From Candidatus Aenigmatarchaeota archaeon (GTDB taxonomy: Archaea; Aenigmatarchaeota; Aenigmatarchaeia; CG10238-14; SCSR01): DNA of 64,000 nt. A program made the position numbers and the translations under genes. A model generated the notes under the pieces. The model made no database searches. It was not told the DNA's origin and saw only the letters and a list, made by a program, of their open reading frames with translations. The stretch covers positions 204,010-268,009 of the forward strand of contig JACPJU010000001.1 in NCBI GenBank assembly GCA_016187385.1. Direction: 5' to 3'. This document shows, piece by piece, positions 7,713 to 31,746 of the stretch; position 1 is the stretch's first letter; every line of letters begins with the position of its first letter.

Positions 7713-8366
7713 ATGTTAAAAGAAGTTTCCAGTAGATTGAAAGAATATAATATTTTCCATAAAATTGAAAATGGATTCTTAGTAACTAGGAAGACAAGAG
7801 TAAAAATACCCCCCATTTCATCTAAAGTAAGTTATTTGACAGGTGTATTAACTGGAGATGGTAATCTCACGATGGTAAAAAGAATGAAAGGGGGTTTTCA
7901 TTACACTGTTAAAATAACGTCAAATTCAACAGACTATTTAAACTATCTGAATACTAGATTTAGAGAATTGTTTTCAATCAAAGGCGAAATTGGAAAGGAT
8001 AACAGAAAGATGAACACATTTTTTCTGATATTCAGAAATGTTTGCATTTTTTGGTATTTTGTAACCGTTGGTCTATGCATTGGAAGAAAAATAAATCCTT
8101 CAATACCACATAAAATTAGAACAAACAGAAAATTTTTAATTACTTACCTAAGTGGATTAGTGGATACAGATGGTCATATTAACCGTAATAGAATACAGCT
8201 AAAACAGAAAAGCAAAAGTTTTTTGGAAGAGATTAAGCAAGCACTCAAGCTATTTAAATTATCGCCTACAGAGGTTAAAGTAAATTACACCAAGTCAATG
8301 CCCTATTATTATATAAGATTTGATAATAGATTATTTTGCTATAAAGTAGCCACAGTAGCTCAGTAG
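7713..8366 (+). CDS. LAGLIDADG homing endonuclease (two-motif, free-standing)
   Basis: Two LAGLIDADG-type motifs: LTGVLTGDGNL and YLSGLVDTDGHI, about 100 aa apart. The 3' end (KVATVAQ*) reads through the first 18 nt of the downstream tRNA. Confidence 0.8.
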   Translation: MLKEVSSRLKEYNIFHKIENGFLVTRKTRVKIPPISSKVSYLTGVLTGDGNLTMVKRMKGGFHYTVKITSNSTDYLNYLNTRFRELFSIKGEIGKDNRKMNTFFLIFRNVCIFWYFVTVGLCIGRKINPSIPHKIRTNRKFLITYLSGLVDTDGHINRNRIQLKQKSKSFLEEIKQALKLFKLSPTEVKVNYTKSMPYYYIRFDNRLFCYKVATVAQ

Positions 8367-8445
8367 GTAGAGCACCCGAAACAGTTGTGAACTGTTGGTG
8401 AACCTTGTAAGCGGAAGGTCGTGGGTTCAATTCCCACCTGTGGCT
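8349..8445 (+). tRNA. tRNA; best anticodon hairpin AACAG-UUGUGAA-CUGUU gives GUG (His). About 24 nt of extra sequence implies intron(s) at non-canonical positions
   Basis: Acceptor GCCACAG/CTGTGGC 7/7, D arm GCTC-AGTAGGTA-GAGC, T arm GTGGG-TTCAATT-CCCAC. Total 97 nt versus about 73 expected. The extra CCCGA lies before the anticodon stem. A 19-nt ACCTT-GTAAGCGG-AAGGT hairpin lies in the variable region. Confidence 0.5.
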
Positions 8446-8455
8446 TTGATTTTGT

Positions 8456-18011: not shown

Positions 18012-19225
18012 TCGTATTGAGAAGTGTCAACAGCCTCGACAAGCTCGACATAATTTATCTGTCCTTGGCTGAGTGCACTACAGTCAGTCGCCCATCCATT
18101 GTGCCAGCGCGCAGAAGCTTTCCAGTATCTGTACTCGTTCCCCGTGCATGGGTAAACATATCCGTATCCTGGATAAGGCTTGTCATAATTGCTTTTAAGG
18201 AACTGTATGCCTATTCTTATGTTGCAGTCCGAGTCGTAAGCGGTTTCGTCATTTACACAACCATAATTCTTGGCCCCTTCTCTAGTAAACCAACTTTCAT
18301 GTATTACATTCAACTGGAATATTCCATAAGAGCCAAGTCCATCTGATTTTATTTTGTCAATGCTGTCTCTTCCGCAATTGTTTGTACCGTCTTTGCAGTG
18401 AGCGATATTAGATATTCTTCCTCCTCCGCTTTCAACAGCGGCTAGTTTAAGTACAAATCTTTGCCCATTCTGATCTAAGCCAAGTTCTTTGGCAATTTGA
18501 ATTATTTTTGCTTGCACATTTCCGACAGGGGGAGGTGGAACAACAACACCAGAAACAGTAAATGCACGTGAAGTAGGACATTCGCTCTGGTCTGCACGGA
18601 AGTATGCCGTATAGTCGTCTGGCGTTCCTGATGACGTGCATGTCCAGCTCCATCCATATTTGTTTCCGTCATTGGTTGGATTATCGCAACATCGTAAGTC
18701 CCTGCAGTTTGAAAAACCTGTACTTGTTATCTGTACGTTCGTGCAGCCTGTATCGGCGGTTGCAGTGACAGTTATATCTGAATTCGGGTTCGATGTCGCC
18801 GGGCTTACATAAAGATTCGACGGAGCTATTCCAGACACGCTAATAATGCTTTTTTCTTCTTCTATCCTTTTTGTTATGGTCAGTGACTTGGCGTTGTCTT
18901 TTGTGAATTCTTGCCCTATGTTGACGAATGACTCGGAGGTGGCTTGCCTGTTGCCAGTCTTAACAACAACATAACCGTCTTTTTTAATCATCACATCATA
19001 TCGGGCATCAGAAGGAAAATTGTAAATTAATTTGGCTTCGTTTGGAGCGTTGTCAGCCATGCTCAGCAGGTTGGCGATTTCCAACGCTTCATTGTTGACT
19101 TTCTGTTCTGTCAAAACTGTTTTCATATCGTTCGCTATCGTGGGAAATATAGCGGCAGCCAGAGATATGTTTATGAGTATAAAACCGAATGTGACTAATG
19201 AATCTGCTTCTACGCTACCCTTCAT
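17987..19225 (-). CDS. Pilin-like protein with lytic transglycosylase (SLT/lysozyme-like) domain
   Basis: N-terminus MKGSVEADSLVTFGFILINISLAAAIF. aa about 235-380 read IIQIAKELGLDQNGQRFVLKLAAVESGGG...SYGIFQLN: the catalytic E-S motif and GLMQ-like motif of SLT family 1. Confidence 0.65.
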   Translation of the reverse strand: MKGSVEADSLVTFGFILINISLAAAIFPTIANDMKTVLTEQKVNNEALEIANLLSMADNAPNEAKLIYNFPSDARYDVMIKKDGYVVVKTGNRQATSESFVNIGQEFTKDNAKSLTITKRIEEEKSIISVSGIAPSNLYVSPATSNPNSDITVTATADTGCTNVQITSTGFSNCRDLRCCDNPTNDGNKYGWSWTCTSSGTPDDYTAYFRADQSECPTSRAFTVSGVVVPPPPVGNVQAKIIQIAKELGLDQNGQRFVLKLAAVESGGGRISNIAHCKDGTNNCGRDSIDKIKSDGLGSYGIFQLNVIHESWFTREGAKNYGCVNDETAYDSDCNIRIGIQFLKSNYDKPYPGYGYVYPCTGNEYRYWKASARWHNGWATDCSALSQGQINYVELVEAVDTSQYECLITGGC

Positions 19226-19251: not shown

Positions 19252-19539
19252 TTAACATGACCTAGCTTGCTGGCATTTGGGATCGTTTGTATTCCTCTGA
19301 AGGACACCACAGCATTCGTCTTTCGCTGGAGGCAGACCACAGTCGGACGGCCACTGTATGCAGTTCTTTCTGGTTATCATCTCGCTGCAGTAGCTTATCT
19401 TTTTGGCTGCGCATCCTCCTTTGACTCCGATGATTTTTGTCACGTCAATCCATTGGGAGAAAATGGCGATTATAAAGAAGAGTGTGATAATGGCGACTCC
19501 TATGAAGAAAAGCGTCTGGGCTGTAACTGCTTTAAGCAT
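19252..19539 (-). CDS. Small pilin-like protein (paralog family, N-terminal TM helix + Cys-rich tail)
   Basis: 95 aa, hydrophobic N-terminus and CAAKKISYC motif shared with 19552..19842 and 24745..25029. Confidence 0.5.
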   Translation of the reverse strand: MLKAVTAQTLFFIGVAIITLFFIIAIFSQWIDVTKIIGVKGGCAAKKISYCSEMITRKNCIQWPSDCGLPPAKDECCGVLQRNTNDPKCQQARSC

Positions 19540-19551
19540 AATGTTATTTTG

Positions 19552-19842
19552 TTATCCTTTGCCTATTAGTTCTTTACACTGGTCGCCGCCAGGTTTATTG
19601 AGCTTCGCATAACTACAAATGTTTTCGTCTGCTGGCCAAGTTGCTGGCTTTGGAGGTTGTTTTCCACTTGCATATGCCGGATCTGCAGAATACCATTCAG
19701 AACATAAACTCTTTTTGGCCAAATCACATCTAACTTTATCAATTCCACCGGCAGAAGCAATCAGCAAATATCCTATAAGACCGATGACGGCAATACCCAA
19801 GACAATTGCTATGACATAAGGAACTGCTACTGCTTTCATCAT
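19552..19842 (-). CDS. Small pilin-like protein (paralog family)
   Basis: MMKAVAVPYVIAIVLGIAVIGLIGYLLI followed by CDLAKKSLCSEW; paralog of 24745..25029. Confidence 0.5.
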   Translation of the reverse strand: MMKAVAVPYVIAIVLGIAVIGLIGYLLIASAGGIDKVRCDLAKKSLCSEWYSADPAYASGKQPPKPATWPADENICSYAKLNKPGGDQCKELIGKG

Positions 19843-19885: not shown

Positions 19886-22366
19886 CTACACTATCTGAAC
19901 CCTTGTGCCAGTGCTTCCGCAACCAGAGACGCAAGAGTTTTTGATTGTATAGTCTCCTAGATCTAAGGTTATAGAGCAGTCTTCTGCTCCTGTATCTGAC
20001 CTTCTATTGATACTACATATAACATTCCCGCTTGAGAAAACACTCCCTTTTGAAAGTTCCAGCTTACCGTCACATCCGAATATCGAGTTTATATTTACAT
20101 TGCTTCTGCTCTGCAATGTAAACTTCCAATAGTTTGCCAATTGATTTTCTGAAGTATCGACAAGTGCGTATTTCACATTACCGTCTGTATTTATCTCACA
20201 TGGCACTGTCGAGCTTAGGCACGGCTGGGCTGGTGCATATAATTGAGGGAGAACTTTTATGGAATTCGCTTTATTATCAAAGCACGGCAATGTGGCTGTA
20301 TCTTGTTTCAAGACTTTGTACGCACCTCCGAAATTGACATCTGAATATAAAACAGCTGTTTGTTCGGATGGCACTTTGATGGATGATATCCTGTTTTGGA
20401 ATGCAAGACTTGACAAATCTGGTTCAGTCAGAGACTGTATAGAAGTGCCTTGATGATTAGCATTGTCATACAAAGTAACTTTTGGTTGAGATACTGCTAC
20501 TGGGGTTGATGAAGAAACTTTGCTTAATCCCCATTCCTGTGCTTCGGCTTTGAAGTCATAAGTCCCACCTTGCACACACATGACAGGCCATGTGGTAGAA
20601 CAGCTTTTACTACTAGCTGACGAGCATTCATATATTCGGGTTCTGACAACTGCCGGACGATCGCCGAACACACATTTGTCTGTTTTGTCGCCACTGTCAT
20701 CCAAACTGATTAACAGACGATAAAGATTGCCATTGGGGTCGCCGGCTTCCATTGTCAAACTGAATGCATCGCCTGCAATCGGACCAAATGGACTGGATGA
20801 TAACTTGACCGTGACCGCGGGTGGGACGACGTTTACCTTGAGTATATTCGTCTGTACTTTTACTCCCGCTAAGGTTTCAATCCGACCTTGGAAGTTGTAT
20901 TCACCTGCATTTACACATTTAACAACAAATTCCTTAGAACATTTGTTACGTTCGGTCTGATCACAAAATACATCCTGTTCTCTTGTGGTTTCAGATGTCC
21001 CTGAGAAGAAGCATTTGCCTTGCTTGTCGCCTTCTGTGTCGAGATTGAATATCACTGTTCCGATGTTATTCATGTCTGTTCTGGATGCTACTGTTAATTT
21101 CATTTCATTATTCAAGACGACAGGCGTTGGAGTTACACTTAATGATGGTATGAAATTTGCAGGCAACACATTGGATATACCTGCATTCTGTTGGGTGTCT
21201 ATGGCACCAGCCATGAATGAATGACGGCCTTCAACACTACATTTGACAGACCACGTAGCGGAACATTGAGAACCGCTTGAGCAATCTTTTGTGACTATTC
21301 TGTCTTCTGTATCTGCAAATCTGCATTTGCCTTGTTTGTCGCCTTGGTCATCAAGATTGAAGTATAATCTGGCAAGATTATGTGTCTGCTTTGTAGCTGT
21401 GACTGTTATTTGTATTGGGTCTTCTATTCCCCTAACCAGTTGGTCTATGGACAGTGTAACGACAGGCAGTGTAACAGGTTGCCCTCCTTCAACAATCCAT
21501 GTATAAATGTTTTCATCTCCCGATGTGCACTTGCCTTTCACGCCATTGTAATCTTTATCCGTTTCTTTTATTCTTTCTGAACATGTGTGCCACTTTCCAT
21601 CTCCGCCGCAGATGACACCGTACTTTACTTTGTATTCGTCTGGGGAGAGGAGTATGCATTTACCGCCTGCACAACTCTCTTTATACCATGTGCACCCTTG
21701 AGAGCTACTACAGAAGGTTCTAGTTAAAGCTTTGTCGTTGTCTAAACAAGCTGGACGTGTGCCTATCTCTATACCCGCTGTTACATGGCCACATCTAACT
21801 ATATTTGTACTTCCTGCGCAAGAAGTTTGCGTATTATCTACAGCTAAACACCTACCACTACGACATTCGTCATATGTAACAACAGGTGTACAACCGAGCG
21901 ATGTGCTTTTTCCAGTTATGCACTCGGATAAACTACCGCAATTTCTGTTGTCTATAGCCACGCCTGGATTTACAAAATATACGCGACCTTTATCATTATT
22001 GTAATCGTTCAAACTATTGTCCTCTTCATCGACCAGCCATAAAACACATCTATTATCAGCGGGTGGTGACGGCAAATCTTTTGGCCAAAAGTACAAGTTA
22101 TCTTCTATTAGAAATTTTTTGTTATTGACATTGTCGAAAAGTGTAAATGCATGGACTTCTGCAATGCTCCCACCTTGATCGGGGTCCAGTCTAACGTACA
22201 AAACTTTTCCTAATTCTGGCACTTGTGGTCCTAATCCACCCATCAACTGCCCCAACAATTCCAAGATGTCTATGTTGAAAGCCTTCAGCAATATGGTCAC
22301 AGCGACAGCAAGAACAGCCACCATCAGAAAAAGCTGCATTACAGCAGAGACTGCGTCGCCTTTCAT
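19886..22366 (-). CDS. Giant pilin-like surface protein with three tandem Cys-rich repeats and a beta/gamma-crystallin domain
   Basis: N-terminus MKGDAVSAVMQLFLMVAVLAVAV. Three about 100-aa repeats with NLDxxGDKxxKCxF...C...W.V.C..G.Y.F. Crystallin Greek-key pattern TLYDNANHQG...NRISSIKV...VLYSDVNFGG. Confidence 0.6.
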   Translation of the reverse strand: MKGDAVSAVMQLFLMVAVLAVAVTILLKAFNIDILELLGQLMGGLGPQVPELGKVLYVRLDPDQGGSIAEVHAFTLFDNVNNKKFLIEDNLYFWPKDLPSPPADNRCVLWLVDEEDNSLNDYNNDKGRVYFVNPGVAIDNRNCGSLSECITGKSTSLGCTPVVTYDECRSGRCLAVDNTQTSCAGSTNIVRCGHVTAGIEIGTRPACLDNDKALTRTFCSSSQGCTWYKESCAGGKCILLSPDEYKVKYGVICGGDGKWHTCSERIKETDKDYNGVKGKCTSGDENIYTWIVEGGQPVTLPVVTLSIDQLVRGIEDPIQITVTATKQTHNLARLYFNLDDQGDKQGKCRFADTEDRIVTKDCSSGSQCSATWSVKCSVEGRHSFMAGAIDTQQNAGISNVLPANFIPSLSVTPTPVVLNNEMKLTVASRTDMNNIGTVIFNLDTEGDKQGKCFFSGTSETTREQDVFCDQTERNKCSKEFVVKCVNAGEYNFQGRIETLAGVKVQTNILKVNVVPPAVTVKLSSSPFGPIAGDAFSLTMEAGDPNGNLYRLLISLDDSGDKTDKCVFGDRPAVVRTRIYECSSASSKSCSTTWPVMCVQGGTYDFKAEAQEWGLSKVSSSTPVAVSQPKVTLYDNANHQGTSIQSLTEPDLSSLAFQNRISSIKVPSEQTAVLYSDVNFGGAYKVLKQDTATLPCFDNKANSIKVLPQLYAPAQPCLSSTVPCEINTDGNVKYALVDTSENQLANYWKFTLQSRSNVNINSIFGCDGKLELSKGSVFSSGNVICSINRRSDTGAEDCSITLDLGDYTIKNSCVSGCGSTGTRVQIV
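20537..21439 (-). repeat. Three in-frame tandem repeat units (~300 nt each) inside the 19886..22366 gene
   Basis: Protein-level repeats DDQGDKQGKCRF / DTEGDKQGKCFF / DDSGDKTDKCVF with conserved Cys spacing. Confidence 0.5.
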
Positions 22367-22406: not shown

Positions 22407-22697
22407 CTATCCTGCAGCACAGAAGGCTCTGCCTATAACCGGTATCTTTGAGATGCCGATAAGATCGCAGACGAATCCCTTCAGTCCAGTAAACAAGGTC
22501 TCGCTAACGAAACTGAATATCTTTTCGCCGAAGAAATAGATAAGAAGCAATGCAAGCGAAGCCAGCAACAGACTGATTATGAGAGTCAACACCTTGCCGA
22601 ACACTGCCTTTCTCATGAAATCCCCACAAATTTCTGATACAAGCGATAGCCTGCCAGCAATACCAGCACTGCTATGGCCAACGTGACGATAAACCAC
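22407..22697 (-). CDS. Small membrane protein (possible minor pilin; likely internal start MRKAVFGKVLTLII at about 22613)
   Basis: Hydrophobic N-terminal helix after a short basic segment. Confidence 0.35.
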   Translation of the reverse strand: MVYRHVGHSSAGIAGRLSLVSEICGDFMRKAVFGKVLTLIISLLLASLALLLIYFFGEKIFSFVSETLFTGLKGFVCDLIGISKIPVIGRAFCAAG

Positions 22698-22754: not shown

Positions 22755-24707
22755 TCATGTTATCAGTGTTTCCACGGATATCACGGAAGTGAACAGATAA
22801 TATGTGAAGATTAGAGTTATGAAATAAACAATACAGCTGAAGCCCAATATTCTGGCGACGGTTAATTTCTTCAGCATTCCTTCGTCGCCGTTGGTTATTG
22901 TGCTCAATGCCATGGCAATCAACACAACAATCTCTATAAGATAAATGCCGACTATGAGCTGGAAATCATGCACAGGAATTATCAGGCCTATTTGGAATAT
23001 AGACGAAAGAACACCTGTCCCGCCTACAGGTCCCAGACCGCCGCCAACATCGCCGAATGACCCAAAGACAGAACCCAGCTTTATGAGCAGCCTTGTCATC
23101 ACAGAGGCTATAGTGACAACAATGCCAGCGCTTAATGGCGCGAGCAATACGGCCTGAGTAGCCATCGTCGACGTTACATCCTCCATCATGTTCCTCAAAT
23201 CTTCATCGACTTCGTGCATGTCTTTCAGATATTTCGAAACCACAACCATGGACTTTGAAGCGCTCGCCATTCCCCTTTTAGACGTCTCAACAACAACTTT
23301 CATCACAGCCTCTATCAGCGTGGAAGGATAATAATTGATTGCGCCATACTTCTTGTCGAATACAGCACTTTCAAACGGCATGCCGAAAACCTTTATGTTG
23401 TAGAGAATCTTTTCGAAGAATTCCGAAATTTTCAATCCTTTTATCTCTCCTTTCAGTCTCTTTAATGAAGTCTCCAAAGGAATACCACGGAGCATAAGGC
23501 TTCCCAACTGGAACAGCGCTTCTGTGAATTCATTTTCTATTTCGGAAATCTCCTGCCTTATTTTCAGCTTCCTCATAATTGAAAGATATGAAAAACCGAC
23601 GATAGCACCGAATCCAACAAACACAAGCAACATCGAATAAATCAGCAATTCAAGACTGAATATTCCACTTCCCGTGAGCAACTTGTAAGAAAGGAACGCA
23701 ATGAAAGGCAAGGGAAGCAACAAGTAGATGTACGGCTTTTCGTAGAATCTATCAGACAATATTTCGGGGTGCTTGCTCAGATCCGGCTCCCGGAAACTAT
23801 ATGGCCTCTTTCCAAGATAGCTCGTCATCATCAGATAAACAACCAAAGGAAGGAAGATGTTATAGCCGAAGACAAGAAAAACCGGTTTTATCAATTCCGG
23901 AAGAAATACGCTTATGATCGGGAAGAACACAAGCCCTATAATCGGAAGAAGTATTCCGAGCGCATTCAATATGGTCACTGGCTGTTTCAATTCCCGCGCA
24001 TAGATTTTCATTCTTTCCTTCGTTCCGTCCAGCATGACAGAAACAGCCTCATCAAGGAATCTTTCTCGTCTGTCCTGAGATTCAACGCTTGATGTTTTTA
24101 TGAGATAGAGGGATGTCGCAAACTCCTTGCTCTCCCTTTCCCATTTTTTGATGAATTCGTCCAACGCATCTTCTGTCCTGTCCAATCTCCGCGTGTAGAC
24201 ACTCCACAAAAGCTCTCGCAGGTCTATGGCCATTGCACCCTTGAGATTTTTGGAAGCAAACCTTATGGCATTCTCAAGGTTGGGCGACAGATGCATCGAG
24301 ATGCTCATGTAGATTGTTGTAAGGACCATCTCGGAAGACGCGCTGATTCTGAACCGCCTGGCGTAATACAGCGGATAATCCACAAGAAAGTAAAAAACAA
24401 TAATAGCCATTATGACAGAGAAGAATATGGAAGATATGGAGAAGGATTTTATTGCTACAAGAGCCAGCATGGAAACTATGAAGAACAGCCAGGTTGCGAC
24501 AAAAGCCAACGCATATGCACCTTTCGGTGTTATCTTTGAGTGAGAGAACGTTATGGCTTCCTGGTATTTTTCATCCAGACTTTTGAAGGATGGTATTATA
24601 GGGAAAATCTTTTCTGATATTCCGCATATTTTTTCATAGAACGAGAGCTTTCTGGCTGATTTTTCTTCTCTCAGGAACTTTTCATACTCGCGCGAAATTA
24701 TTGGCAT
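22755..24707 (-). CDS. Polytopic membrane protein, FlaJ/TadC (PilC)-like type IV pilus platform protein
   Basis: 650 aa with about 9 TM helices separated by two cytoplasmic alpha-helical blocks; lies directly downstream of the secretion ATPase in the same orientation. Confidence 0.55.
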   Translation of the reverse strand: MPIISREYEKFLREEKSARKLSFYEKICGISEKIFPIIPSFKSLDEKYQEAITFSHSKITPKGAYALAFVATWLFFIVSMLALVAIKSFSISSIFFSVIMAIIVFYFLVDYPLYYARRFRISASSEMVLTTIYMSISMHLSPNLENAIRFASKNLKGAMAIDLRELLWSVYTRRLDRTEDALDEFIKKWERESKEFATSLYLIKTSSVESQDRRERFLDEAVSVMLDGTKERMKIYARELKQPVTILNALGILLPIIGLVFFPIISVFLPELIKPVFLVFGYNIFLPLVVYLMMTSYLGKRPYSFREPDLSKHPEILSDRFYEKPYIYLLLPLPFIAFLSYKLLTGSGIFSLELLIYSMLLVFVGFGAIVGFSYLSIMRKLKIRQEISEIENEFTEALFQLGSLMLRGIPLETSLKRLKGEIKGLKISEFFEKILYNIKVFGMPFESAVFDKKYGAINYYPSTLIEAVMKVVVETSKRGMASASKSMVVVSKYLKDMHEVDEDLRNMMEDVTSTMATQAVLLAPLSAGIVVTIASVMTRLLIKLGSVFGSFGDVGGGLGPVGGTGVLSSIFQIGLIIPVHDFQLIVGIYLIEIVVLIAMALSTITNGDEGMLKKLTVARILGFSCIVYFITLIFTYYLFTSVISVETLIT

Positions 24708-24744: not shown

Positions 24745-25029
24745 CTATGAACATCCTGTATTTGATTTGTCCCAGTTTGGGATTATGGCTTTGCAGAATT
24801 GACACACATCTTTCGACCAGTCGACTTTGCATTTTCCTGTTTGAAGTTCAGTTTTAAGACTTTCCGATTTAGTGCCGCAGTACTGGACTTTTTTTGCTAT
24901 GCACTCTGCCTCTGTGCCTGCATCACCGCCTTTACCTTTTGAATAGATAAGCAAATATCCGATCAATGCTATCAGGATAACGCCGAGAACAATCGCCACT
25001 ATATATCCTACGGGAAATCCGCCTTTCAT
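24745..25029 (-). CDS. Small pilin-like protein (paralog family)
   Basis: MKGGFPVGYIVAIVLGVILIALIGYLLI then CIAKKVQYCG; 4-nt overlap with the ATPase gene. Confidence 0.5.
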   Translation of the reverse strand: MKGGFPVGYIVAIVLGVILIALIGYLLIYSKGKGGDAGTEAECIAKKVQYCGTKSESLKTELQTGKCKVDWSKDVCQFCKAIIPNWDKSNTGCS

Positions 25030-27266
25030 TTCACCCTCTCCTTGAACCAGTCAGACCATTTGTCGTAAATCATCTTCGAATCCAACGCCCCTACTTCTTT
25101 CTTGACTTGCTCGGAAATTAAATGAAACATTGAATTAGATTCGACTATGTAATTGGCCTCCAGGATATCGTCTCTACCTGTCTTTGTGGCTATGTCTATC
25201 ATAGTTTCTTTTATCTTTGCTCTCAATAAAATGTTGTCCCAGACAGCGTCCCAGTGACCGTGCCATTCCCGCACCCTTTTAGAAATTTCATTCAACACTT
25301 GAGATTCGCCGTCGATGAGAACATCTGTCGGTTTCAGCCTGTCTTCCTTCGCGGAATACTCCATCAAGTTGACAAACCCTCCTTCATCCAATGGGTCATT
25401 TTTCCAGTTCTTTCTCACTTCTGTCAATTCTGTTACTCTTCTGAACCTATGCAGTCCGTCAGGGGATTTCAAAAGATTGCACACAGTTATCAGATCCAAT
25501 GCCTTGAAGCTTGTCGGAGGAACTCCCAAATCATGAACAATCCTGTCGTAAACACCGTAAGCGGATTCGCCGTGCACTGTGCCCGCGACTACATTCGACA
25601 TCCCGCCTATTCGCATGGCTTCGAATAATGCTATAGCCTCGACGCTTCTGACTTCGCCTATAACCAGAACAGAATCGCCCAATCTCAATGCTGTCCTCAA
25701 TGCTTCTGCTGCGGGCAGTTCAGTCTCAACACGAGTAATAACAGAACGCGACTTCATCCTTTCTATGTTGTATCCAAGGGTTCTGATTTGGGGAACGGAA
25801 ATTTCCAGAGTATCTTCTGTGACAATTATCCTGAACTTTGACATTATCTCGAGTATCAATGAATTCAAAAGTGAGGTCTTGCCTGATCCCCTTCCGCCGG
25901 CTATGAGCATCGCACGTCCGCCGTCAATAATGAAACTCATCAATCCCGCATACAGCGGATCGAACATCTTATTCTTGATGAACAAAGGATACGTCCACGG
26001 TTTCTCTCTGTGACGCCTGAATGCGAATGCCAGTCCTTCTGGGGACAACGTTCTTGTGATGGCTGCCACACGCGCCCTTCCACCAGGAACAGTTAATTCT
26101 GTATCCAGAACAGGATTCGATTCGTCTAGAGGCCTGCCTGAATAAAGCCTGAATCTTGTTGCCCATGACTCTGCATCATCCATTGTAGGCATAAGATTTG
26201 TCTCGCATTCTTCAAAATCGGACTGTGTGACGTAGATTGGAGTTCGTCCTATTGGAGAATTTACGAATATATCTTGTATATTTTCATCTGCGAGCAGGAT
26301 TTCCAAGATGCCGAAACCTGCCGTATAACGCGCCAGGATGTCGGATAATTCTTCGATTTCATCAGCCGTCAAGCTCACATTCATGCCTGTGGCTATGTCC
26401 CTTACCAGATCCCTTCCAAGATTTTTGAACATCTCGCGTGACTTGTCAGGCTCTACCGATTCAGCTTCTGTAGGCCTGTGAGCGGACAAATATCTTCTTG
26501 CCGAATCTAGAATAGTGTACTTTTCTTCGCTGAGAACAAACTCGCGAGGTATCACATGATAAAGATGACGAACTTTGTTAGGAAGTTTGTATATTTCGAT
26601 TTTCGCGTTTCCAACAGAATATTTGTTAACCATCCTTGCTCCTTTAGGTATGTTAAGCATGAGCCTCGTCAACATGAAGTTTGGCCTGACTATGGGAGAG
26701 AATAATTCGCGATAAATGTCCCTAGTGCCTGGCTGATAATCATGAAGTATGGGAAGTGCTTTTTGTATCAGAGTGCATTCTTCGAGTATCTGTTTGATTG
26801 GAATCAATGCGCTGTCAAGATAATGTGTGAAGCACACCTTCTGCTCGAATGGTGCTGTTTTCTCGAGAACTTTGTTGTTGTTCACCATCTTTACTGTCTG
26901 CATGTACGCCGCTATCGGATCTCTTCTCAAAAGTTGCAGAACCATGAATTGCAAGTCATTCAATCTTTTCGGGAAAAGCTTTTCGCATTGCGGAGGACCA
27001 AGATTTTTCAGGCTTATTATCCTGTCTATGTTCAATATCCTGTTGTAAGCATCTGCTATTTCTCTCAACAACCGCGTCTGTTCGGAATCGTATTCATTCT
27101 CTCTCGCTTCAATCAAAACTATTCTGTCAGCGTCCTTTACTTCCAGAAGTTTGTCGATGACAACAGCCATTGTTGCATCTGAATCTTCTATGCTCGGAGC
27201 AATAGCCCACCTTGCACAATTTATTCTCAAAATTCCGTCTACAACTTCGTATTCTACGCCAGCCAT
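25026..27266 (-). CDS. Type II/IV secretion system ATPase (FlaI/PilB/TadA/VirB11 family) with extended N-terminal region
   Basis: Walker A LIAGGRGSGKTSLLNSL, Walker B/Asp box SVLVIGEVRS, His-box-like region; 746 aa. Confidence 0.85.
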   Translation of the reverse strand: MAGVEYEVVDGILRINCARWAIAPSIEDSDATMAVVIDKLLEVKDADRIVLIEARENEYDSEQTRLLREIADAYNRILNIDRIISLKNLGPPQCEKLFPKRLNDLQFMVLQLLRRDPIAAYMQTVKMVNNNKVLEKTAPFEQKVCFTHYLDSALIPIKQILEECTLIQKALPILHDYQPGTRDIYRELFSPIVRPNFMLTRLMLNIPKGARMVNKYSVGNAKIEIYKLPNKVRHLYHVIPREFVLSEEKYTILDSARRYLSAHRPTEAESVEPDKSREMFKNLGRDLVRDIATGMNVSLTADEIEELSDILARYTAGFGILEILLADENIQDIFVNSPIGRTPIYVTQSDFEECETNLMPTMDDAESWATRFRLYSGRPLDESNPVLDTELTVPGGRARVAAITRTLSPEGLAFAFRRHREKPWTYPLFIKNKMFDPLYAGLMSFIIDGGRAMLIAGGRGSGKTSLLNSLILEIMSKFRIIVTEDTLEISVPQIRTLGYNIERMKSRSVITRVETELPAAEALRTALRLGDSVLVIGEVRSVEAIALFEAMRIGGMSNVVAGTVHGESAYGVYDRIVHDLGVPPTSFKALDLITVCNLLKSPDGLHRFRRVTELTEVRKNWKNDPLDEGGFVNLMEYSAKEDRLKPTDVLIDGESQVLNEISKRVREWHGHWDAVWDNILLRAKIKETMIDIATKTGRDDILEANYIVESNSMFHLISEQVKKEVGALDSKMIYDKWSDWFKERVK

Positions 27267-27789: not shown

Positions 27790-28056
27790 ATGAAAAAATT
27801 TGAGTCAATTCTGACTAGCAAAGGTCAAATAACAATACCTAAGCCTATTAGAGAACATCTTGGATTAAAACCTGGTAAAAGAGTAGTTTTCATGCCAGAC
27901 GAAGATGAGGTTATTATGATGAAGGCAGGGCAGAGTCTTGTAGAAGGCTTAATGAAAATAAGGAAAGATTTAGAAAGGAAAGGCAAACTTTTCACAGAGG
28001 CAGAAATTAAAAGAATGATGAAAGAAGGTAAGAAGGAATGGAGTAAAGTTGAATGA
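27790..28056 (+). CDS. vapB: AbrB/SpoVT-family antitoxin (VapB-like)
   Basis: KGQITIPKPIREHLGLKPGKRV swapped-hairpin motif; 88 aa; 4-nt ATGA overlap with the PIN gene. Confidence 0.7.
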   Translation: MKKFESILTSKGQITIPKPIREHLGLKPGKRVVFMPDEDEVIMMKAGQSLVEGLMKIRKDLERKGKLFTEAEIKRMMKEGKKEWSKVE

Positions 28057-28454
28057 TCGGTTTGGATTCTTGGATTTTCTTAGAATTTTATACGAAGGGT
28101 AGAAAATGGTTAAAATGCGAGCAAGTAATTAAAAGCATTGATATAAAAGTAATTAGCACAGTAGTTTTGTTAGAAATAAAGTATAAGCTTGCTAAAGCTT
28201 TTGGAAAATTGGAAGCTAGAAAAGTTTTAAATAAAATAAAAGTTAACAAATCAATTTTGATAATAGATGTAGATGAAAAGGTCGCTGAAAAAGCCGCGAA
28301 CCTTAGATTGAAATACTATAAAAGTAATGTCACAGAACTTTCTTATGCTGACTGTATCCATCTATCCACAGCTATTCTTTCCAAGTGCAAGAAATTCTAT
28401 TCTGGCGACCCCGATTTTAAAGGAATAAATGAAATACCTATTGAAATTGTTTAG
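28053..28454 (+). CDS. vapC: PIN-domain ribonuclease toxin (VapC)
   Basis: Acidic residues in a PIN arrangement (GLDSWIF..., ...YADCIHLSTA..., ...SGDPDF); 133 aa. Confidence 0.7.
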   Translation: MIGLDSWIFLEFYTKGRKWLKCEQVIKSIDIKVISTVVLLEIKYKLAKAFGKLEARKVLNKIKVNKSILIIDVDEKVAEKAANLRLKYYKSNVTELSYADCIHLSTAILSKCKKFYSGDPDFKGINEIPIEIV

Positions 28455-29184: not shown

Positions 29185-29688
29185 ATGGCAATTCCTATCG
29201 AAACTTTTCTTTCGCCGCAAATGGTTCAATATCTGGTAACTCTGATAATTCCGTTCGTGCTTTTGTTTTCTGTATTGTTTGTCGGATTGAGGATGACTCG
29301 CATATTCGGCGACAACAATCCCATTTATCTTATTCTCTCATTGGGGTTCGTAATAATGATTTATGCCGTCCAACCAGATACATTCGCGTTTCTTGCAGGC
29401 TATTTGTTCCAGATTGGGGTGATGAACAGTATACTCGTCTTGTTGGGATTTATTGCGCTCGTTTTCTGGTTTTTGATAAGGAAGAGTGTAAGCTGGGCGG
29501 CATCTTTGAAAGGCGACGAACAGAAATTGGAGGATCTGAGAAAACTTGAATCAAAGTTATTGTTGAAATTGTACAATGAAAGAAACATGGAGAAGAAAAT
29601 ACAGGTGGAGAGCAAGCTGACTGAAGTCCAGAGAGAAATGAAGATATTGAGCTTGAAGCTCAGCTCAAAACTCAAACGGTATGCTTAA
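29185..29688 (+). CDS. Membrane protein, tandem paralog family member 1 (TM + coiled-coil tail)
   Basis: Shares the LxxLxxPFVLxxxVLxxxLRxTxIFGD N-terminal block with the next three genes. Confidence 0.5.
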   Translation: MAIPIETFLSPQMVQYLVTLIIPFVLLFSVLFVGLRMTRIFGDNNPIYLILSLGFVIMIYAVQPDTFAFLAGYLFQIGVMNSILVLLGFIALVFWFLIRKSVSWAASLKGDEQKLEDLRKLESKLLLKLYNERNMEKKIQVESKLTEVQREMKILSLKLSSKLKRYA

Positions 29689-29720
29689 ATTTCTACAAAC
29701 CGAATTATGTTTAAGATAGA

Positions 29721-30257
29721 ATGGTCAATGTATTTCAAATAGTCGCCGAGAAGCTTGTCGAGCTTGGATTTTACAACTTCTTCCTACCGTTTGTTTTGTT
29801 CTCGACAGTTCTTTATGCGATGTTGAGACAGACCAAAGTTCTCGGAGATTCGCCTACGATTCTTGGCATTGTTGCTATAAGCGTTGGCTTGTTTGTTTTC
29901 GGCCTGCCTGTAATTATTGGCGTTGGAGTTGCCCCTGAACTGACTGGATTTTTCGGTCAGATGTCTGTCATCCTTATTGTGTTTGTGTTTGGTCTTCTCA
30001 TAGCCAGCTTCTTCTATCCGAATTTGATGGAACGACTGCCGGATTTGGTCAAGGGCGGAGGACCTCTGCAGTTTCTAGTCTGGGCTGTTGTGGCATTCGC
30101 CGCATTGTTCGGACTTTTCAATTTCGCGGGGAACTTTATCAATTTTGTCGTAAAGACTACCAGTCTTCAACCTGACTTGCTGACAATCACAGGCGTCATC
30201 ATGGCTGTTTTAATCATATTCCTGCTAATAACTATAGGGGGAGGAAGAGGTGGATAA
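29721..30257 (+). CDS. Membrane protein, tandem paralog family member 2
   Basis: VAEKLVELGFYNFFLPFVLFSTVLYAMLRQTKVLGD; about 5 TM helices. Confidence 0.5.
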   Translation: MVNVFQIVAEKLVELGFYNFFLPFVLFSTVLYAMLRQTKVLGDSPTILGIVAISVGLFVFGLPVIIGVGVAPELTGFFGQMSVILIVFVFGLLIASFFYPNLMERLPDLVKGGGPLQFLVWAVVAFAALFGLFNFAGNFINFVVKTTSLQPDLLTITGVIMAVLIIFLLITIGGGRGG

Positions 30258-30796
30258 TGGCATCGCTTTTTGAAATAGCAATTTTGAAGCTCAAGGAGCT
30301 GGGTTTCTTCAATTTCCTCCTTCCGTTCATTTTGACAGCGGCTATCATTTATGGCGGATTGAGGCGCGCCAAGATATTCGGAGATCCTGACGCGAACATG
30401 GCTGTTAATGCGATTGTTGCTTTTGTTGTCAGCTTGTTCGTATGGGCCGCGCCTATAATTCTAGGTGTTGACATAGAGGGAAAATTGGCGTCATTCTTCA
30501 TCCAGGGGTTTAGTGTGTCGTTGATTGTATTGGTTGGGCTTATATTCGCTGGGATGTTCTTCAAGCCTGACCTAGCAGGTGACTTGAGCGACAAGATAAA
30601 ATCAACTTACTTCTGGGGAGCTATCCTGATTATTTCTTTGATGGTCGCTGTAGTTATTTTTATTTCAAGTGGGCTGGCGACTGTCCTGTTTCCGAAAGGC
30701 ACTGGATTCACAATTCCGCCAGATACATTTATAACCGTAGGAGTACTATTTTTATTAGCAATAAGCGTTGCTGTGATAGTCAGGTCGGGTAAATGA
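30257..30796 (+). CDS. Membrane protein, tandem paralog family member 3
   Basis: ILKLKELGFFNFLLPFILTAAIIYGGLRRAKIFGD; start overlaps the previous stop by 1 nt. Confidence 0.5.
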   Translation: MASLFEIAILKLKELGFFNFLLPFILTAAIIYGGLRRAKIFGDPDANMAVNAIVAFVVSLFVWAAPIILGVDIEGKLASFFIQGFSVSLIVLVGLIFAGMFFKPDLAGDLSDKIKSTYFWGAILIISLMVAVVIFISSGLATVLFPKGTGFTIPPDTFITVGVLFLLAISVAVIVRSGK

Positions 30797-31746
30797 GAAA
30801 TGAAATCAAGGCAATTGGTTTTGTATTTGTCGTAAGTCTGCTGATGTTTTCTACTGTCGCTTTTGCCCAGGTAAGGACTTTTCAGGATCTGATTAATGCG
30901 GGAAAGAAGATTGGAATTTTCGATTTCTTTTTCCCATTTTTGATGGCTTTTGCCGTGTTTTATGGTCTTATAGTCAAGAGTACTATTTTCGGGCCATCAA
31001 CTGACAAAGGAGCTAAGACAATAGGTCTTTTCATAGCGTTGGCTGCTGCTGGATTTGTAGTCACTTATACACCCATAGGGTTTTCTCTGGCGCAGTTTCT
31101 GACACAATTCGCGACTAATGCTTTCGTGGCGATACTCGCAACAATTGTTTTTCTTCTATTTGTAACTATGTTTGCGAGTGCTAGTCATGGTTTATTTAAC
31201 ACCGAGATTTTTAAAAACATGTCAATTCCATTAGTCATCGTAATTCTGCTTATTAGTTTTGGTATATATTTTCAGGCAGGCGGCTCTAGAATATTTCCGG
31301 GACTGGCAACCATATTCAACATACCTCTCGAGACGGTTGTAATAGTCGTGGGTATAGTGTTGTTCATTGTCGCTCTCATTTTGCTGATTGTTACAGGTGG
31401 TGGAACTCCTGCAGCTCCTGCTCCTCCTGTTCCATCTGATGCAAGACTTAAGCAGGACATAATGCCATTAACGAACACGTTGAAAAAATTGAAGAACATT
31501 GATGGTGTTTATTTCAGATGGAACAAGAATAATCGGTTCAATAAAAGCGGTAAGAAGGAAATCGGTGTGATTGCCCAGGATGTTGAAAAGGAATTTCCTG
31601 AGCTTGTTTCCAAAGGAAGCGACGGTTACAGAATGGTTGATTACAGCAAACTGTCAGCCGTGCTTCTGCAGGCCGTAAAGGATCAACAGAAACAGATTGA
31701 AAATCTCAAGTCTAAGATTTCTAAGCTAGAATCAAGATTGAATTAA
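30793..31746 (+). CDS. Membrane protein, paralog family member 4, with C-terminal peptidase S74-type intramolecular chaperone (phage tailspike/endosialidase auto-processing) domain
   Basis: C-terminal SDARLKQDIMPLTNTLKKLKNIDGVYFRWNK...EIGVIAQDVEKEFPELV...DGYRMVDYSKL...LLQAVKDQQKQIENL matches the S74 chaperone consensus (SDxRLKxNI...GVxYxW...IGxIAQEVxxxxPELV...YxxVDYxxL). Confidence 0.65.
   Translation: MRNEIKAIGFVFVVSLLMFSTVAFAQVRTFQDLINAGKKIGIFDFFFPFLMAFAVFYGLIVKSTIFGPSTDKGAKTIGLFIALAAAGFVVTYTPIGFSLAQFLTQFATNAFVAILATIVFLLFVTMFASASHGLFNTEIFKNMSIPLVIVILLISFGIYFQAGGSRIFPGLATIFNIPLETVVIVVGIVLFIVALILLIVTGGGTPAAPAPPVPSDARLKQDIMPLTNTLKKLKNIDGVYFRWNKNNRFNKSGKKEIGVIAQDVEKEFPELVSKGSDGYRMVDYSKLSAVLLQAVKDQQKQIENLKSKISKLESRLN

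What the first reader, a model, noticed from the sequence alone, without database searches (positions are those of the whole stretch)
19886..22366. 826-aa pilin-like protein with three tandem Cys-rich repeats and a beta/gamma-crystallin domain
Three about 100-aa repeats carry NLDxxGDKxxKCxF and then four conserved Cys plus W/G positions, at aa about 310-610. A textbook double Greek-key pattern (TLYDNANHQG...NRISSIKV / VLYSDVNFGG...NSIKV) follows, and a C-terminal Cys-rich region ends the protein. Microbial beta/gamma-crystallins are Ca-binding adhesion or stress modules. The architecture points to an extracellular adhesin presented on the pilus machinery.
Basis: seen in the sequence. Interest (0 to 1): 0.5.

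Follow-up and report, generated by a model that had tools for sequence, protein, structure and literature searches.

The report
Archaeal modular pilin-like adhesin with crystallin domain
This gene from a tiny DPANN archaeon (Aenigmarchaeota) encodes a large, unannotated pilus-subunit-like protein onto which three Ig-like spacers, a beta/gamma-crystallin domain and a collagenase-type binding domain have been grafted; it is most likely an adhesin shown at the tip of a type IV-like filament.

Summary
- MKG leader and hydrophobic helix
- a 250-aa disulfide-rich N-module with no Pfam, NCBIfam or PDB match
- three PKD/Fn3-like Ig domains

The gene sits in an 11-gene operon with a FlaI/TadA-type ATPase, a 9-TM platform protein and eight other proteins with the same leader. 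The operon is conserved gene for gene in seven other contigs, five of them labelled Aenigmarchaeota/Aenigmatarchaeota. Some orthologues are the bare 334-aa N-module, so the Ig-crystallin-PPC part is grafted cargo.

Best reading: an archaeal modular minor pilin acting as a tip adhesin. Both crystallin Ca-binding motifs deviate from the canonical form, so Ca binding is unproven. Processing, filament incorporation and ligand are inferred. This is a new variant of a known kind. The more interesting lead is that sibling pilin-like slots carry GH5, lysozyme-like, amidase, M23 and LysM modules.

The parts
19886..22366 (-). Whole ORF, 826 aa plus stop; a modular pilin-like protein
22358..22366 (-). 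Putative class III leader M-K-G (Lys at -2, Gly at -1); predicted cleavage before Asp4
   Evidence: Sequence; criteria from PMC3387779; cleavage itself is inferred
22244..22357 (-). Hydrophobic N-terminal alpha-helix (aa 4-29 and 34-41), the most conserved stretch of the family
   Evidence: AF2 model; invariant F13 L14 M15 A17 V18 V21 L26 A29 F30 D33; hydrophobicity
21476..22234 (-). N-module globular part (aa 45-297): beta-rich, 16 Cys, conserved core of a family with no annotation
   Evidence: no Pfam/NCBIfam hit; no distinctive PDB fold match
21155..21475 (-). Repeat R1 (aa 298-404), Ig-like beta-sandwich with 4 Cys; closest to the single copy in orthologues
20822..21154 (-). Repeat R2 (aa 405-515), Ig-like, 4 Cys
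20489..20821 (-). Repeat R3 (aa 516-626), Ig-like, 4 Cys
20231..20488 (-). Beta/gamma-crystallin domain (aa 627-712), two Greek keys; Ca motifs QNRISS and DNKANS
19889..20230 (-). C-terminal PPC / collagen-binding-domain-like beta-sandwich (aa 713-826), 7 Cys; conserved as a unit with the crystallin domain
25026..27266 (-). Operon gene 1: 746-aa secretion ATPase (FlaI/TadA type) with a long N-terminal extension
   Evidence: Pfam T2SSE 1e-16; NCBIfam TadA 1.6e-35, FlaI 5.4e-34
22755..24707 (-). 650-aa polytopic membrane protein (about 9 TM), the probable platform protein
   Evidence: a 65%-identical orthologue carries a faint T2SSF hit
24745..25029 (-). Small pilin-like protein (94 aa), candidate filament subunit
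22407..22616 (-). Small pilin-like protein (about 69 aa counted from MRKAVFG)
19552..19842 (-). Small pilin-like protein (96 aa)
19252..19539 (-). Small pilin-like protein (95 aa, 8 Cys)
17987..19225 (-). 412-aa pilin-like protein carrying a weak lytic-transglycosylase-like module
17340..18011 (-). 223-aa pilin-like protein, conserved in all related loci
15181..17343 (-). 720-aa pilin-like protein with a poly-Pro linker and a GH5 mannanase-like module
13739..15184 (-). 481-aa pilin-like protein, last gene of the operon

Best explanation
The 826-aa protein is a modular minor subunit of an Aenigmarchaeota-specific type IV filament (TFF) system.

Shown:
- It starts with a three-residue leader (M-K-G) followed by a roughly 38-residue hydrophobic helix.
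- It is the fifth gene of an operon that encodes a FlaI/TadA-type ATPase, a polytopic platform protein and eight other proteins with the same kind of N-terminus.
- Its first ~300 residues are the conserved core of a protein family that occupies this operon slot in related archaea.
- Residues 298-826 are lineage-specific cargo: three Ig-like domains, one beta/gamma-crystallin domain and one PPC/collagen-binding-type beta-sandwich.

Inferred mechanism:
1. A class III signal peptidase, not encoded in this window, cuts after Gly3.
2. The helix holds the protein in the membrane until the ATPase/platform machine loads it into a filament built mainly of the 94-96-aa pilins.
3. Because the protein is bulky, it sits at the filament tip. 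It probably sits there with the four translationally coupled pilin-like proteins encoded downstream.
4. The three disulfide-stapled Ig domains act as a stalk of roughly 10 nm.
5. The stalk holds out the crystallin+PPC pair, which binds a surface ligand (glycan or protein) on a partner or host cell.

The ligand is unknown, and Ca dependence is possible but not supported by the motifs.
For: Signal and helix:
- All nine non-core proteins of the operon have Lys at -2 and Gly/Ala at -1, then 20-30 hydrophobic residues. This matches the archaeal SPase III criteria in PMC3387779.
- The helix is the best-conserved part of the family, which would be unusual for a cleaved Sec signal. AF2 models it as a helix.

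Machinery:
- ATPase: T2SSE, TadA and FlaI hits.
- A 9-TM platform candidate.

Conserved operon:
- Gene-for-gene synteny in L001 and L006-L012. Five of these contigs are labelled Aenigmarchaeota/Aenigmatarchaeota; the rest are 'uncultured archaeon' or unnamed.

Grafting:
- Orthologues in this slot range from 334 aa (N-module only, in L009 and L012) to 715 aa, with differing C-terminal parts.
- The neighbouring slots range from cargo-less proteins of 123-249 aa to enzyme-bearing versions.

Domain identities:
- AF2 pLDDT 85.3 and 87.3.

Selection on the cargo:
- The crystallin+PPC pair is conserved as a unit with 8 aligned Cys in four other proteins.
- One of these is a second N-module protein with a single repeat (L005).
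- Another is a bacterial protein encoded beside a T4P cluster.

Extracellular character:
- 36 Cys occur in even-numbered sets per domain or domain pair.

Concept precedent:
- Modular pilins in bacteria (PMC8179133).
- Large adhesin-like proteins in archaeal TFF loci (bioRxiv 10.64898/2026.04.22.720090).
Against: - No Pfam or NCBIfam pilin model hits this protein, any of its 36 relatives, or the small pilins of the operon.
- A crude motif scan found no prepilin peptidase in the 64-kb window.
- My remembered FlaFind pattern matches the target but not most of its operon siblings, so it is not a usable test here.
- Asp at +1 is unusual for a cleavage site.
- Tip location, filament formation and ligand binding have no direct evidence.
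- Both crystallin Ca motifs are non-canonical.
Confidence: 0.6

Rival explanations
1. Bindosome-like or pseudopilus display. The proteins are processed as class III substrates, but they form a short cell-surface assembly rather than a long pilus. That assembly displays an adhesin and hydrolases at the envelope, as proposed for the Sulfolobus sugar-binding proteins.
For: - Most subunits of the operon are large and carry enzymes or binding modules.
- The ATPase gives a weak NCBIfam hit to bindosome BasE, 6.5e-12.
Against: - The operon also encodes four very small pilin-like proteins of roughly 69-96 aa, which are suited to building a filament body.
- The ATPase scores far better against the TadA and FlaI models than against BasE.
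- Nothing here distinguishes a short assembly from a long one.
Confidence: 0.2
2. An ordinary surface protein that is only co-located with the TFF genes. The N-terminal hydrophobic segment would be an uncleaved signal anchor or an SPase I signal, and the protein would be a membrane-anchored or secreted adhesin that is never handled by the pilus machine.
For: - No pilin HMM hit.
- No pilin-like fold match for the N-module.
- No peptidase gene found in the window.
Against: - The gene keeps the same slot between the platform gene and the small pilins in eight related loci.
- The hydrophobic segment is the most conserved region of the family.
- The K-G/A leader is shared by all nine accessory proteins.
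- A 25-plus-residue H-region directly after a 3-residue leader is atypical for SPase I substrates. This last point rests on established knowledge, not on a test here.
Confidence: 0.12
3. A structural, Ca-dependent coat or stress protein in the manner of Myxococcus Protein S. The crystallin domain would drive Ca-dependent self-assembly on the cell surface rather than ligand binding.
For: The closest solved relatives are Protein S, clostrillin and flavollin. Most sampled microbial relatives carry canonical NDxxSS motifs.
Against: - There is a single crystallin domain within an 826-aa multi-domain protein.
- Both Ca motifs deviate from the canonical form, and in the four related proteins carrying the same crystallin+PPC module the first motif is non-canonical throughout and the second in two of four.
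- The domain is always paired with the PPC-like domain.
- The operon context is a filament machine.
Confidence: 0.04

Closest known systems
Modular type IV pilins of bacteria (Streptococcus sanguinis PilB with a vWA module, PilC with a lectin module; ETEC CofB) - Raynaud et al. 2021, PMC8179133
   Same: - A small pilin carrier with a class III signal peptide is fused through a linker to one or more bulky binding modules.
- The subunit is predicted to be tip-exposed.
- Orthologues with and without the module exist.
- The architectures are very varied.
   Different: - This system is archaeal, with a K-G leader and none of the bacterial IPR012902/N-methylation motif.
- The carrier is an unusually large (~300 aa), disulfide-rich N-module with no known family.
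- I did not find the Ig x3 + crystallin + PPC cargo among the 15 most frequent architectures that the paper describes in its text. I did not check its Dataset S1.
Large adhesin-like proteins in archaeal TFF loci ('system 2' and others) - bioRxiv 10.64898/2026.04.22.720090
   Same: - The ATPase has an extended N-terminus.
- There is a single platform gene.
- The locus holds several SPIII pilins plus large Ig-rich adhesin-like proteins.
   Different: - arCOG and system membership was not tested here.
- That survey does not mention Aenigmarchaeota (0 occurrences).
- Here the adhesin-like protein itself carries the pilin-type N-terminus.
[quoted passage not shown]
   Same: Functional, non-structural proteins are equipped with a prepilin-type leader and depend on a TFF-type ATPase and platform.
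   Different: The cargo there is ABC-type sugar-binding proteins used for uptake. Here the cargo is adhesion-type beta-sandwich domains, and hydrolases in the sibling genes.
Microbial beta/gamma-crystallin domains (Protein S, flavollin, clostrillin, vibrillin, M-crystallin)
   Different: Both N/D-N/D-X-X-S/T-S motifs are off by one residue. The domain is permanently paired with a PPC-like domain and carries a conserved Cys (C695), probably for an inter-domain disulfide (inferred).
Pre-peptidase C-terminal (PPC) / clostridial collagenase collagen-binding domains (ColG s3b 1nqd, ColH 3jqw, B. anthracis 5sv5)
   Different: There is no Pfam PF04151 hit at E<=0.1. Sequence identity is 10-16%. The domain has seven Cys. 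No collagen is expected in this habitat, so the ligand must differ.

Membership tests
Beta/gamma-crystallin (Pfam PF00030) | HMM score above the curated gathering threshold | tested here: met
   26.7 bits against 25, E 6.1e-6, aa 629-689
Beta/gamma-crystallin (Pfam PF00030) | Double Greek-key fold | tested here: met
Beta/gamma-crystallin (Pfam PF00030) | Y/F-x-x-x-x-Y/F-x-G signature in both Greek keys (PMC3551895) | tested here: inconclusive
   Key 2, YSDVNFGG, is canonical. Key 1, YDNANHQG, has His at the second aromatic position.
Ca-binding microbial beta/gamma-crystallins | Two canonical N/D-N/D-X-X-S/T-S motifs (PMC3551895) | tested here: not met
   QNRISS has Gln at position 1. DNKANS has Asn at position 5. 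Ca binding itself cannot be tested with these tools.
[quoted passage not shown] | Short leader with a positive charge at -2 and a small residue at -1, with the processing site N-terminal to a hydrophobic helix (PMC3387779, PMC6098224) | tested here: met
   M-K-G | DAVSAVMQLFLMVAVLAVAVTILL. The helix spans aa 4-29 and 34-41 in the AF2 model.
[quoted passage not shown] | Match to a curated pilin or class III signal HMM (Pfam, NCBIfam) | tested here: not met
   None of the 37 family members hits any pilin model at E<=1. The reviews note that archaeal pilins often lack sequence homology (PMC6098224).
[quoted passage not shown] | Encoded together with a TFF ATPase and a platform protein | tested here: met
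   Same-strand operon 27266-13739, conserved in L001 and L006-L012.
[quoted passage not shown] | Cleavage by PibD/EppA and incorporation into a filament | not testable with these tools
   No peptidase motif was found in the window by a crude regex. The rest of the 786-kb contig is not available here.
Modular pilins (sensu Raynaud et al. 2021) | A pilin carrier module plus an additional functional module that is absent from some orthologues | tested here: met
   Orthologues of 334 aa have the N-module only; others of 570-715 aa carry other C-termini. Domain boundaries come from the AF2 models.
Modular pilins (sensu Raynaud et al. 2021) | IPR012902 bacterial N-terminal methylation motif | not tested
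   InterPro is not available here. Pfam N_methyl gave no hit. The motif is bacterial and is not expected in archaea.
PPC / collagen-binding domain (Pfam PF04151) | Fold match to solved PPC/CBD domains | tested here: met
PPC / collagen-binding domain (Pfam PF04151) | HMM match | tested here: not met
   No Pfam hit at E<=0.1. A profile search against PDB returned only noise.
PKD / Fn3-type Ig-like domains | Beta-sandwich fold match | tested here: met

The most novel reading that the evidence does not exclude
The protein is the attachment arm of an Aenigmarchaeota-specific 'armed' type IV filament. In this reading the tip subunits form an exchangeable toolkit. One slot carries adhesion modules (Ig-crystallin-PPC here). 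The neighbouring slots carry cell-wall-cutting modules: GH5 and a lytic-transglycosylase-like domain here, and Amidase_2, Peptidase_M23, SLT_3 and LysM in sister genomes. Because these modules act on or bind peptidoglycan, the filament would let a DPANN archaeon attach to and breach bacterial cells. That is a host range not documented for any cultivated DPANN archaeon.
Probability: 0.2. Interest if true: 0.8.

Novelty: new variant of a known kind. Interest (0 to 1): 0.45.

Why it matters
No Aenigmarchaeota archaeon has a known host or a known attachment device. This locus gives a concrete candidate that can be expressed:
- a filament machine conserved across the lineage
- a defined distal binding unit (crystallin+PPC, aa 627-826)
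- sibling subunits carrying peptidoglycan-directed enzymes in related genomes

It extends the 'modular pilin' principle, so far surveyed in bacteria through a bacterial signature, to archaea. It also defines a new ~300-aa carrier family that no Pfam or NCBIfam model covers. If the hydrolase cargo really is pilus-borne, it would point to bacteria as partners or prey of a DPANN lineage.

Tried and rejected
1. The search for homologous proteins with the N-module alignment returned only the query and P0066. With the C-terminal domain alignment it returned nothing, probably because of word-index limits. The exhaustive representative search was the productive one.
2. The fold search library afdb50 was not installed. 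Foldseek against PDB on model 1 gave only generic macroglobulin/Ig hits with TMq about 0.2, so the N-module fold stays unassigned.
3. A profile of the C-terminal domain searched against PDB sequences returned only chymosin noise, E 0.6.
4. A FlaFind-type regular expression written from memory matched the target (KGDAVS). It missed most siblings that plainly share the same leader. I dropped it as a test, and Szabo et al. 2007 could not be read.
5. A motif scan for a prepilin peptidase (GxGD[VILAM]K) in all six frames of the window found nothing.
6. Tandem Repeats Finder found no DNA-level repeat, so the repeats are not a recent expansion or an assembly artefact.
8. I considered and rejected that the repeats are cadherin-type or DxDxDG Ca loops. 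The NLDDQGDK loop does not fit that motif, and I have no model coordinates to inspect it.
9. PDB and Pfam gave no support beyond E 0.03 for a lytic transglycosylase in the 412-aa sibling, so it is reported only as weak.
Full report
**1. Observation**

Window 19886-22366 (minus strand) is an intact ATG-initiated ORF of 826 aa. It is identical to NCBI 'MAG: hypothetical protein HYW24_01460 [Candidatus Aenigmarchaeota archaeon]', seen on a 786-kb contig. The window has about 40% GC and one tRNA, a 99-nt tRNA-His.

The three repeats are real. Residues 298-404, 405-515 and 516-626 align at 26-37% identity. Pairwise BLASTP E-values run from 1e-15 to 9e-10. Smith-Waterman scores lie 20-24 standard deviations above shuffled controls. 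The NLDxxGDKxxKC motif and four Cys are in register in each copy. There is no tandem repeat at the DNA level, so the triplication is old.

Pfam Crystall (PF00030) passes its gathering score, 26.7 against 25 bits, at aa 629-689. The best solved relatives by sequence are Protein S and flavollin.

**2. Anatomy from structure prediction**

- **Residues 1-44** form a helix (4-29 and 34-41) after the tripeptide MKG.

Cys counts per unit are 16, 4, 4, 4 and 1+7. This fits an oxidised extracellular protein. It also suggests one disulfide linking the crystallin domain (C695) to the PPC-like domain. The pairing itself is inferred.

**3. Crystallin details**

The signatures defined in PMC3551895 are Y/FxxxxY/FxG and N/D-N/D-X-X-S/T-S. 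Greek key 2 is canonical (YSDVNFGG). Greek key 1 has His at the second aromatic position (YDNANHQG). The two Ca motifs are QNRISS and DNKANS, each with one non-canonical residue.

The four other proteins that share the crystallin+PPC pair also vary at these positions, for example TASSAK/NDMVRS and NDETNS. By contrast, most of the generic microbial crystallin domains I sampled carry NDxxSS. The fold is therefore certain, but Ca binding is not.

**4. Genomic context**

The gene is the fifth of eleven co-directional, tightly spaced genes (27266 down to 13739):
- a 746-aa ATPase (Pfam T2SSE 1e-16; NCBIfam TadA 1.6e-35 and FlaI 5.4e-34)
- a 94-aa protein
- a 650-aa membrane protein with about 9 TM
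- a roughly 69-96-aa protein
- the target
- proteins of 96 and 95 aa
- proteins of 412, 223, 720 and 481 aa, whose coding regions overlap one another

All nine non-core proteins start with M-(x)-K-G/A followed by 20-30 hydrophobic residues. [quoted passage not shown]

No Pfam or NCBIfam pilin model matches the target, its 36 relatives or the small proteins. The reviews note that archaeal pilins often lack detectable homology and are recognised by their signal peptides.

**5. Family and synteny**

An exhaustive HMMER search of 1.84 billion representatives found 285 hits in three groups.
- **About 45 proteins share the N-module.** They have leaders such as MSKSMAIEGVMKIFLMIAVIIVGMSFLLKAFGID and lengths of 250-800 aa.
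- **Many proteins contain crystallin repeats.**
- **Four proteins share crystallin+PPC as one unit** (P0008, P0013, P0017, P0027), with 27 invariant positions in the PPC part.

The hydrophobic helix is the most conserved stretch of the N-module family. That is typical of pilins and atypical of cleaved Sec signals.

The loci recovered for orthologues are L001 and L006 and L007-L012 from GTDB species representatives. Three of these six are labelled Candidatus Aenigmatarchaeota. The other three are labelled 'uncultured archaeon' (L007 is the same contig as L006). L001 is an unnamed contig, but it encodes the same proteins as L008. They show the same gene order: ATPase, 1-3 small pilins, platform, small protein, N-module protein, two small pilins, then homologues of the 412-, 223-, 720- and 481-aa proteins. 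L001 begins after the platform gene.

The N-module slot holds proteins of 334 aa (N-module alone, in L009 and L012) up to 715 aa. Some orthologues have one Cys-repeat (P0004, P0007, P0009, P0019). R1 of the target is the copy closest to those, at 42% to P0007.

A second N-module + one repeat + crystallin + PPC protein exists in a JGI metagenome. It is 33% identical over aa 535-817, and that assembly splits it by a frameshift. The cargo is therefore grafted, variable between lineages, and maintained over considerable divergence.

**6. Sibling slots**

The same pattern holds for the neighbouring genes. A conserved N-terminal region of ~100-135 aa is followed by variable cargo.

In the window:
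- The 720-aa protein carries a poly-Pro linker and a GH5 mannanase-like domain (Pfam 6e-14; 1qno 5.8e-14).
- The 412-aa protein carries a weak SLT-like region (E 0.03).

In other genomes the corresponding slots carry Amidase_2 (8.6e-29), Peptidase_M23 (7.6e-18), SLT_3 (1.7e-9 and 7.6e-9) and LysM (4.8e-9), all above Pfam thresholds. In L009, L011 and L012 these slots hold cargo-less proteins of 123-249 aa.

A recent survey of archaeal peptidoglycan hydrolases does not mention pilins (PMC12352652).

**7. Interpretation**

The best-supported reading is a modular minor pilin, meaning a carrier (leader, helix and N-module) plus grafted functional modules. This has been established for bacteria (PMC8179133). 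It also fits the large adhesin-like proteins noted in archaeal TFF loci whose ATPases have an extended N-terminus and whose platform is a single gene (bioRxiv 10.64898/2026.04.22.720090).

- **Shown:** the domain architecture, the operon, the conservation and the graft pattern.
- **Inferred:** SPase III cleavage after Gly3, loading by the ATPase and platform, a tip position alongside the four overlapping downstream subunits, a stalk role for the Ig domains, and ligand binding by crystallin+PPC.

One further hint is that a bacterial 1135-aa protein with the same crystallin+PPC unit lies beside a complete bacterial T4P cluster. This is a single case.

Rivals are a bindosome-like surface assembly, a plain signal-anchored surface protein, and a Protein S-like Ca-dependent coat. 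None is excluded by computation alone, and the first differs only in filament length.

**8. Novelty and score**

Each individual domain is known, and so is the concept. What is new:
- The carrier family matches no Pfam or NCBIfam model, and every source name I could retrieve is 'hypothetical protein'.
- The Ig x3-crystallin-PPC cargo sits on an archaeal pilin-like carrier.
- The finding is placed in an operon seen so far only in Aenigmarchaeota/Aenigmatarchaeota-labelled or unnamed archaeal contigs, with exchangeable adhesin and hydrolase cargo.

I rate it a new variant of a known kind, interest 0.45. The operon-level reading is that the filament is armed with peptidoglycan-directed enzymes, implying bacterial partners for a DPANN archaeon. 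That reading is the more surprising possibility. It remains unproven, at a probability of about 0.2.

Noticed in passing
window 15181-17343 (-): A 720-aa protein with the same MKG leader and hydrophobic helix. It has a run of 11 Pro as a linker, a Cys-rich middle part and a GH5 mannanase-like domain (Pfam Cellulase 6e-14; PDB 1qno 5.8e-14). This looks like a glycoside hydrolase on a pilin-like carrier.
   Followed up: partly
window 17987-19225 (-): A 412-aa pilin-like protein. Residues 136-224 are a Cys-rich Ig-like module that also occurs inside orthologue P0004 of the target (40% identity). Its C-terminus has a weak SLT hit (E 0.03) with ES and GIFQ motifs typical of lytic transglycosylases.
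   Followed up: partly
L001 3140-3970 and 6218-7927; L006 17125-17739, 18329-20386 and 20383-22035: In sister genomes (L001 and L006) the pilin-like slots that correspond to the 412-, 720- and 481-aa genes carry SLT_3, Amidase_2, LysM and Peptidase_M23 domains, all above Pfam thresholds. In L009, L011 and L012 the first two of these slots hold cargo-less proteins of 123-249 aa. These are peptidoglycan-directed modules on pilin-like carriers in an archaeon.
   Followed up: yes
window 11093-13738 (+): An 881-aa ORF convergent on the end of the operon has a lysozyme-like SLT_3 match just below threshold (25.5 against 27 bits).
   Followed up: no
window 29185-31746 (+): Four paralogous small membrane proteins (167, 178, 179 and 317 aa), three of which share an LGF(F/Y)NF(F/L)LPF(I/V)L-type motif. 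The last one carries a Peptidase_S74 endosialidase-chaperone domain (E 8e-17). A similar run of genes lies divergent from the ATPase in L006, so they may belong to the system.
   Followed up: partly
L014 (Logan SRR22388196), gene 9510-12917: A bacterial 1135-aa Sec-signal protein (P0027) with the same crystallin+PPC supermodule lies next to a complete bacterial type IV pilus cluster: PilO, PilB, PilT, PilC, three N_methyl pilins and an A24 peptidase.
   Followed up: partly
L005 (JGI 3300076124) 1-1933: A second protein with N-module + one repeat + crystallin + PPC. In this assembly it is split by a frameshift between the N-module and the rest. This could be a sequencing error or a pseudogene.
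   Followed up: partly
L006 12270-13805: An IS200/IS605-type pair (Y1 transposase plus OrfB/TnpB) is inserted directly after the target's orthologue, inside the pilus operon.
   Followed up: no
window 8348-8446 (+): The tRNA-His (GUG) is 99 nt long, which suggests an intron as is common in archaea.
   Followed up: no
window 27790-28454 (+): An 88-aa ORF with an AbrB/SpoVT-like N-terminus (judged by eye) overlaps a 133-aa ORF. This may be a toxin-antitoxin pair inserted among the genes that lie divergent from the ATPase. It was not tested.
   Followed up: no
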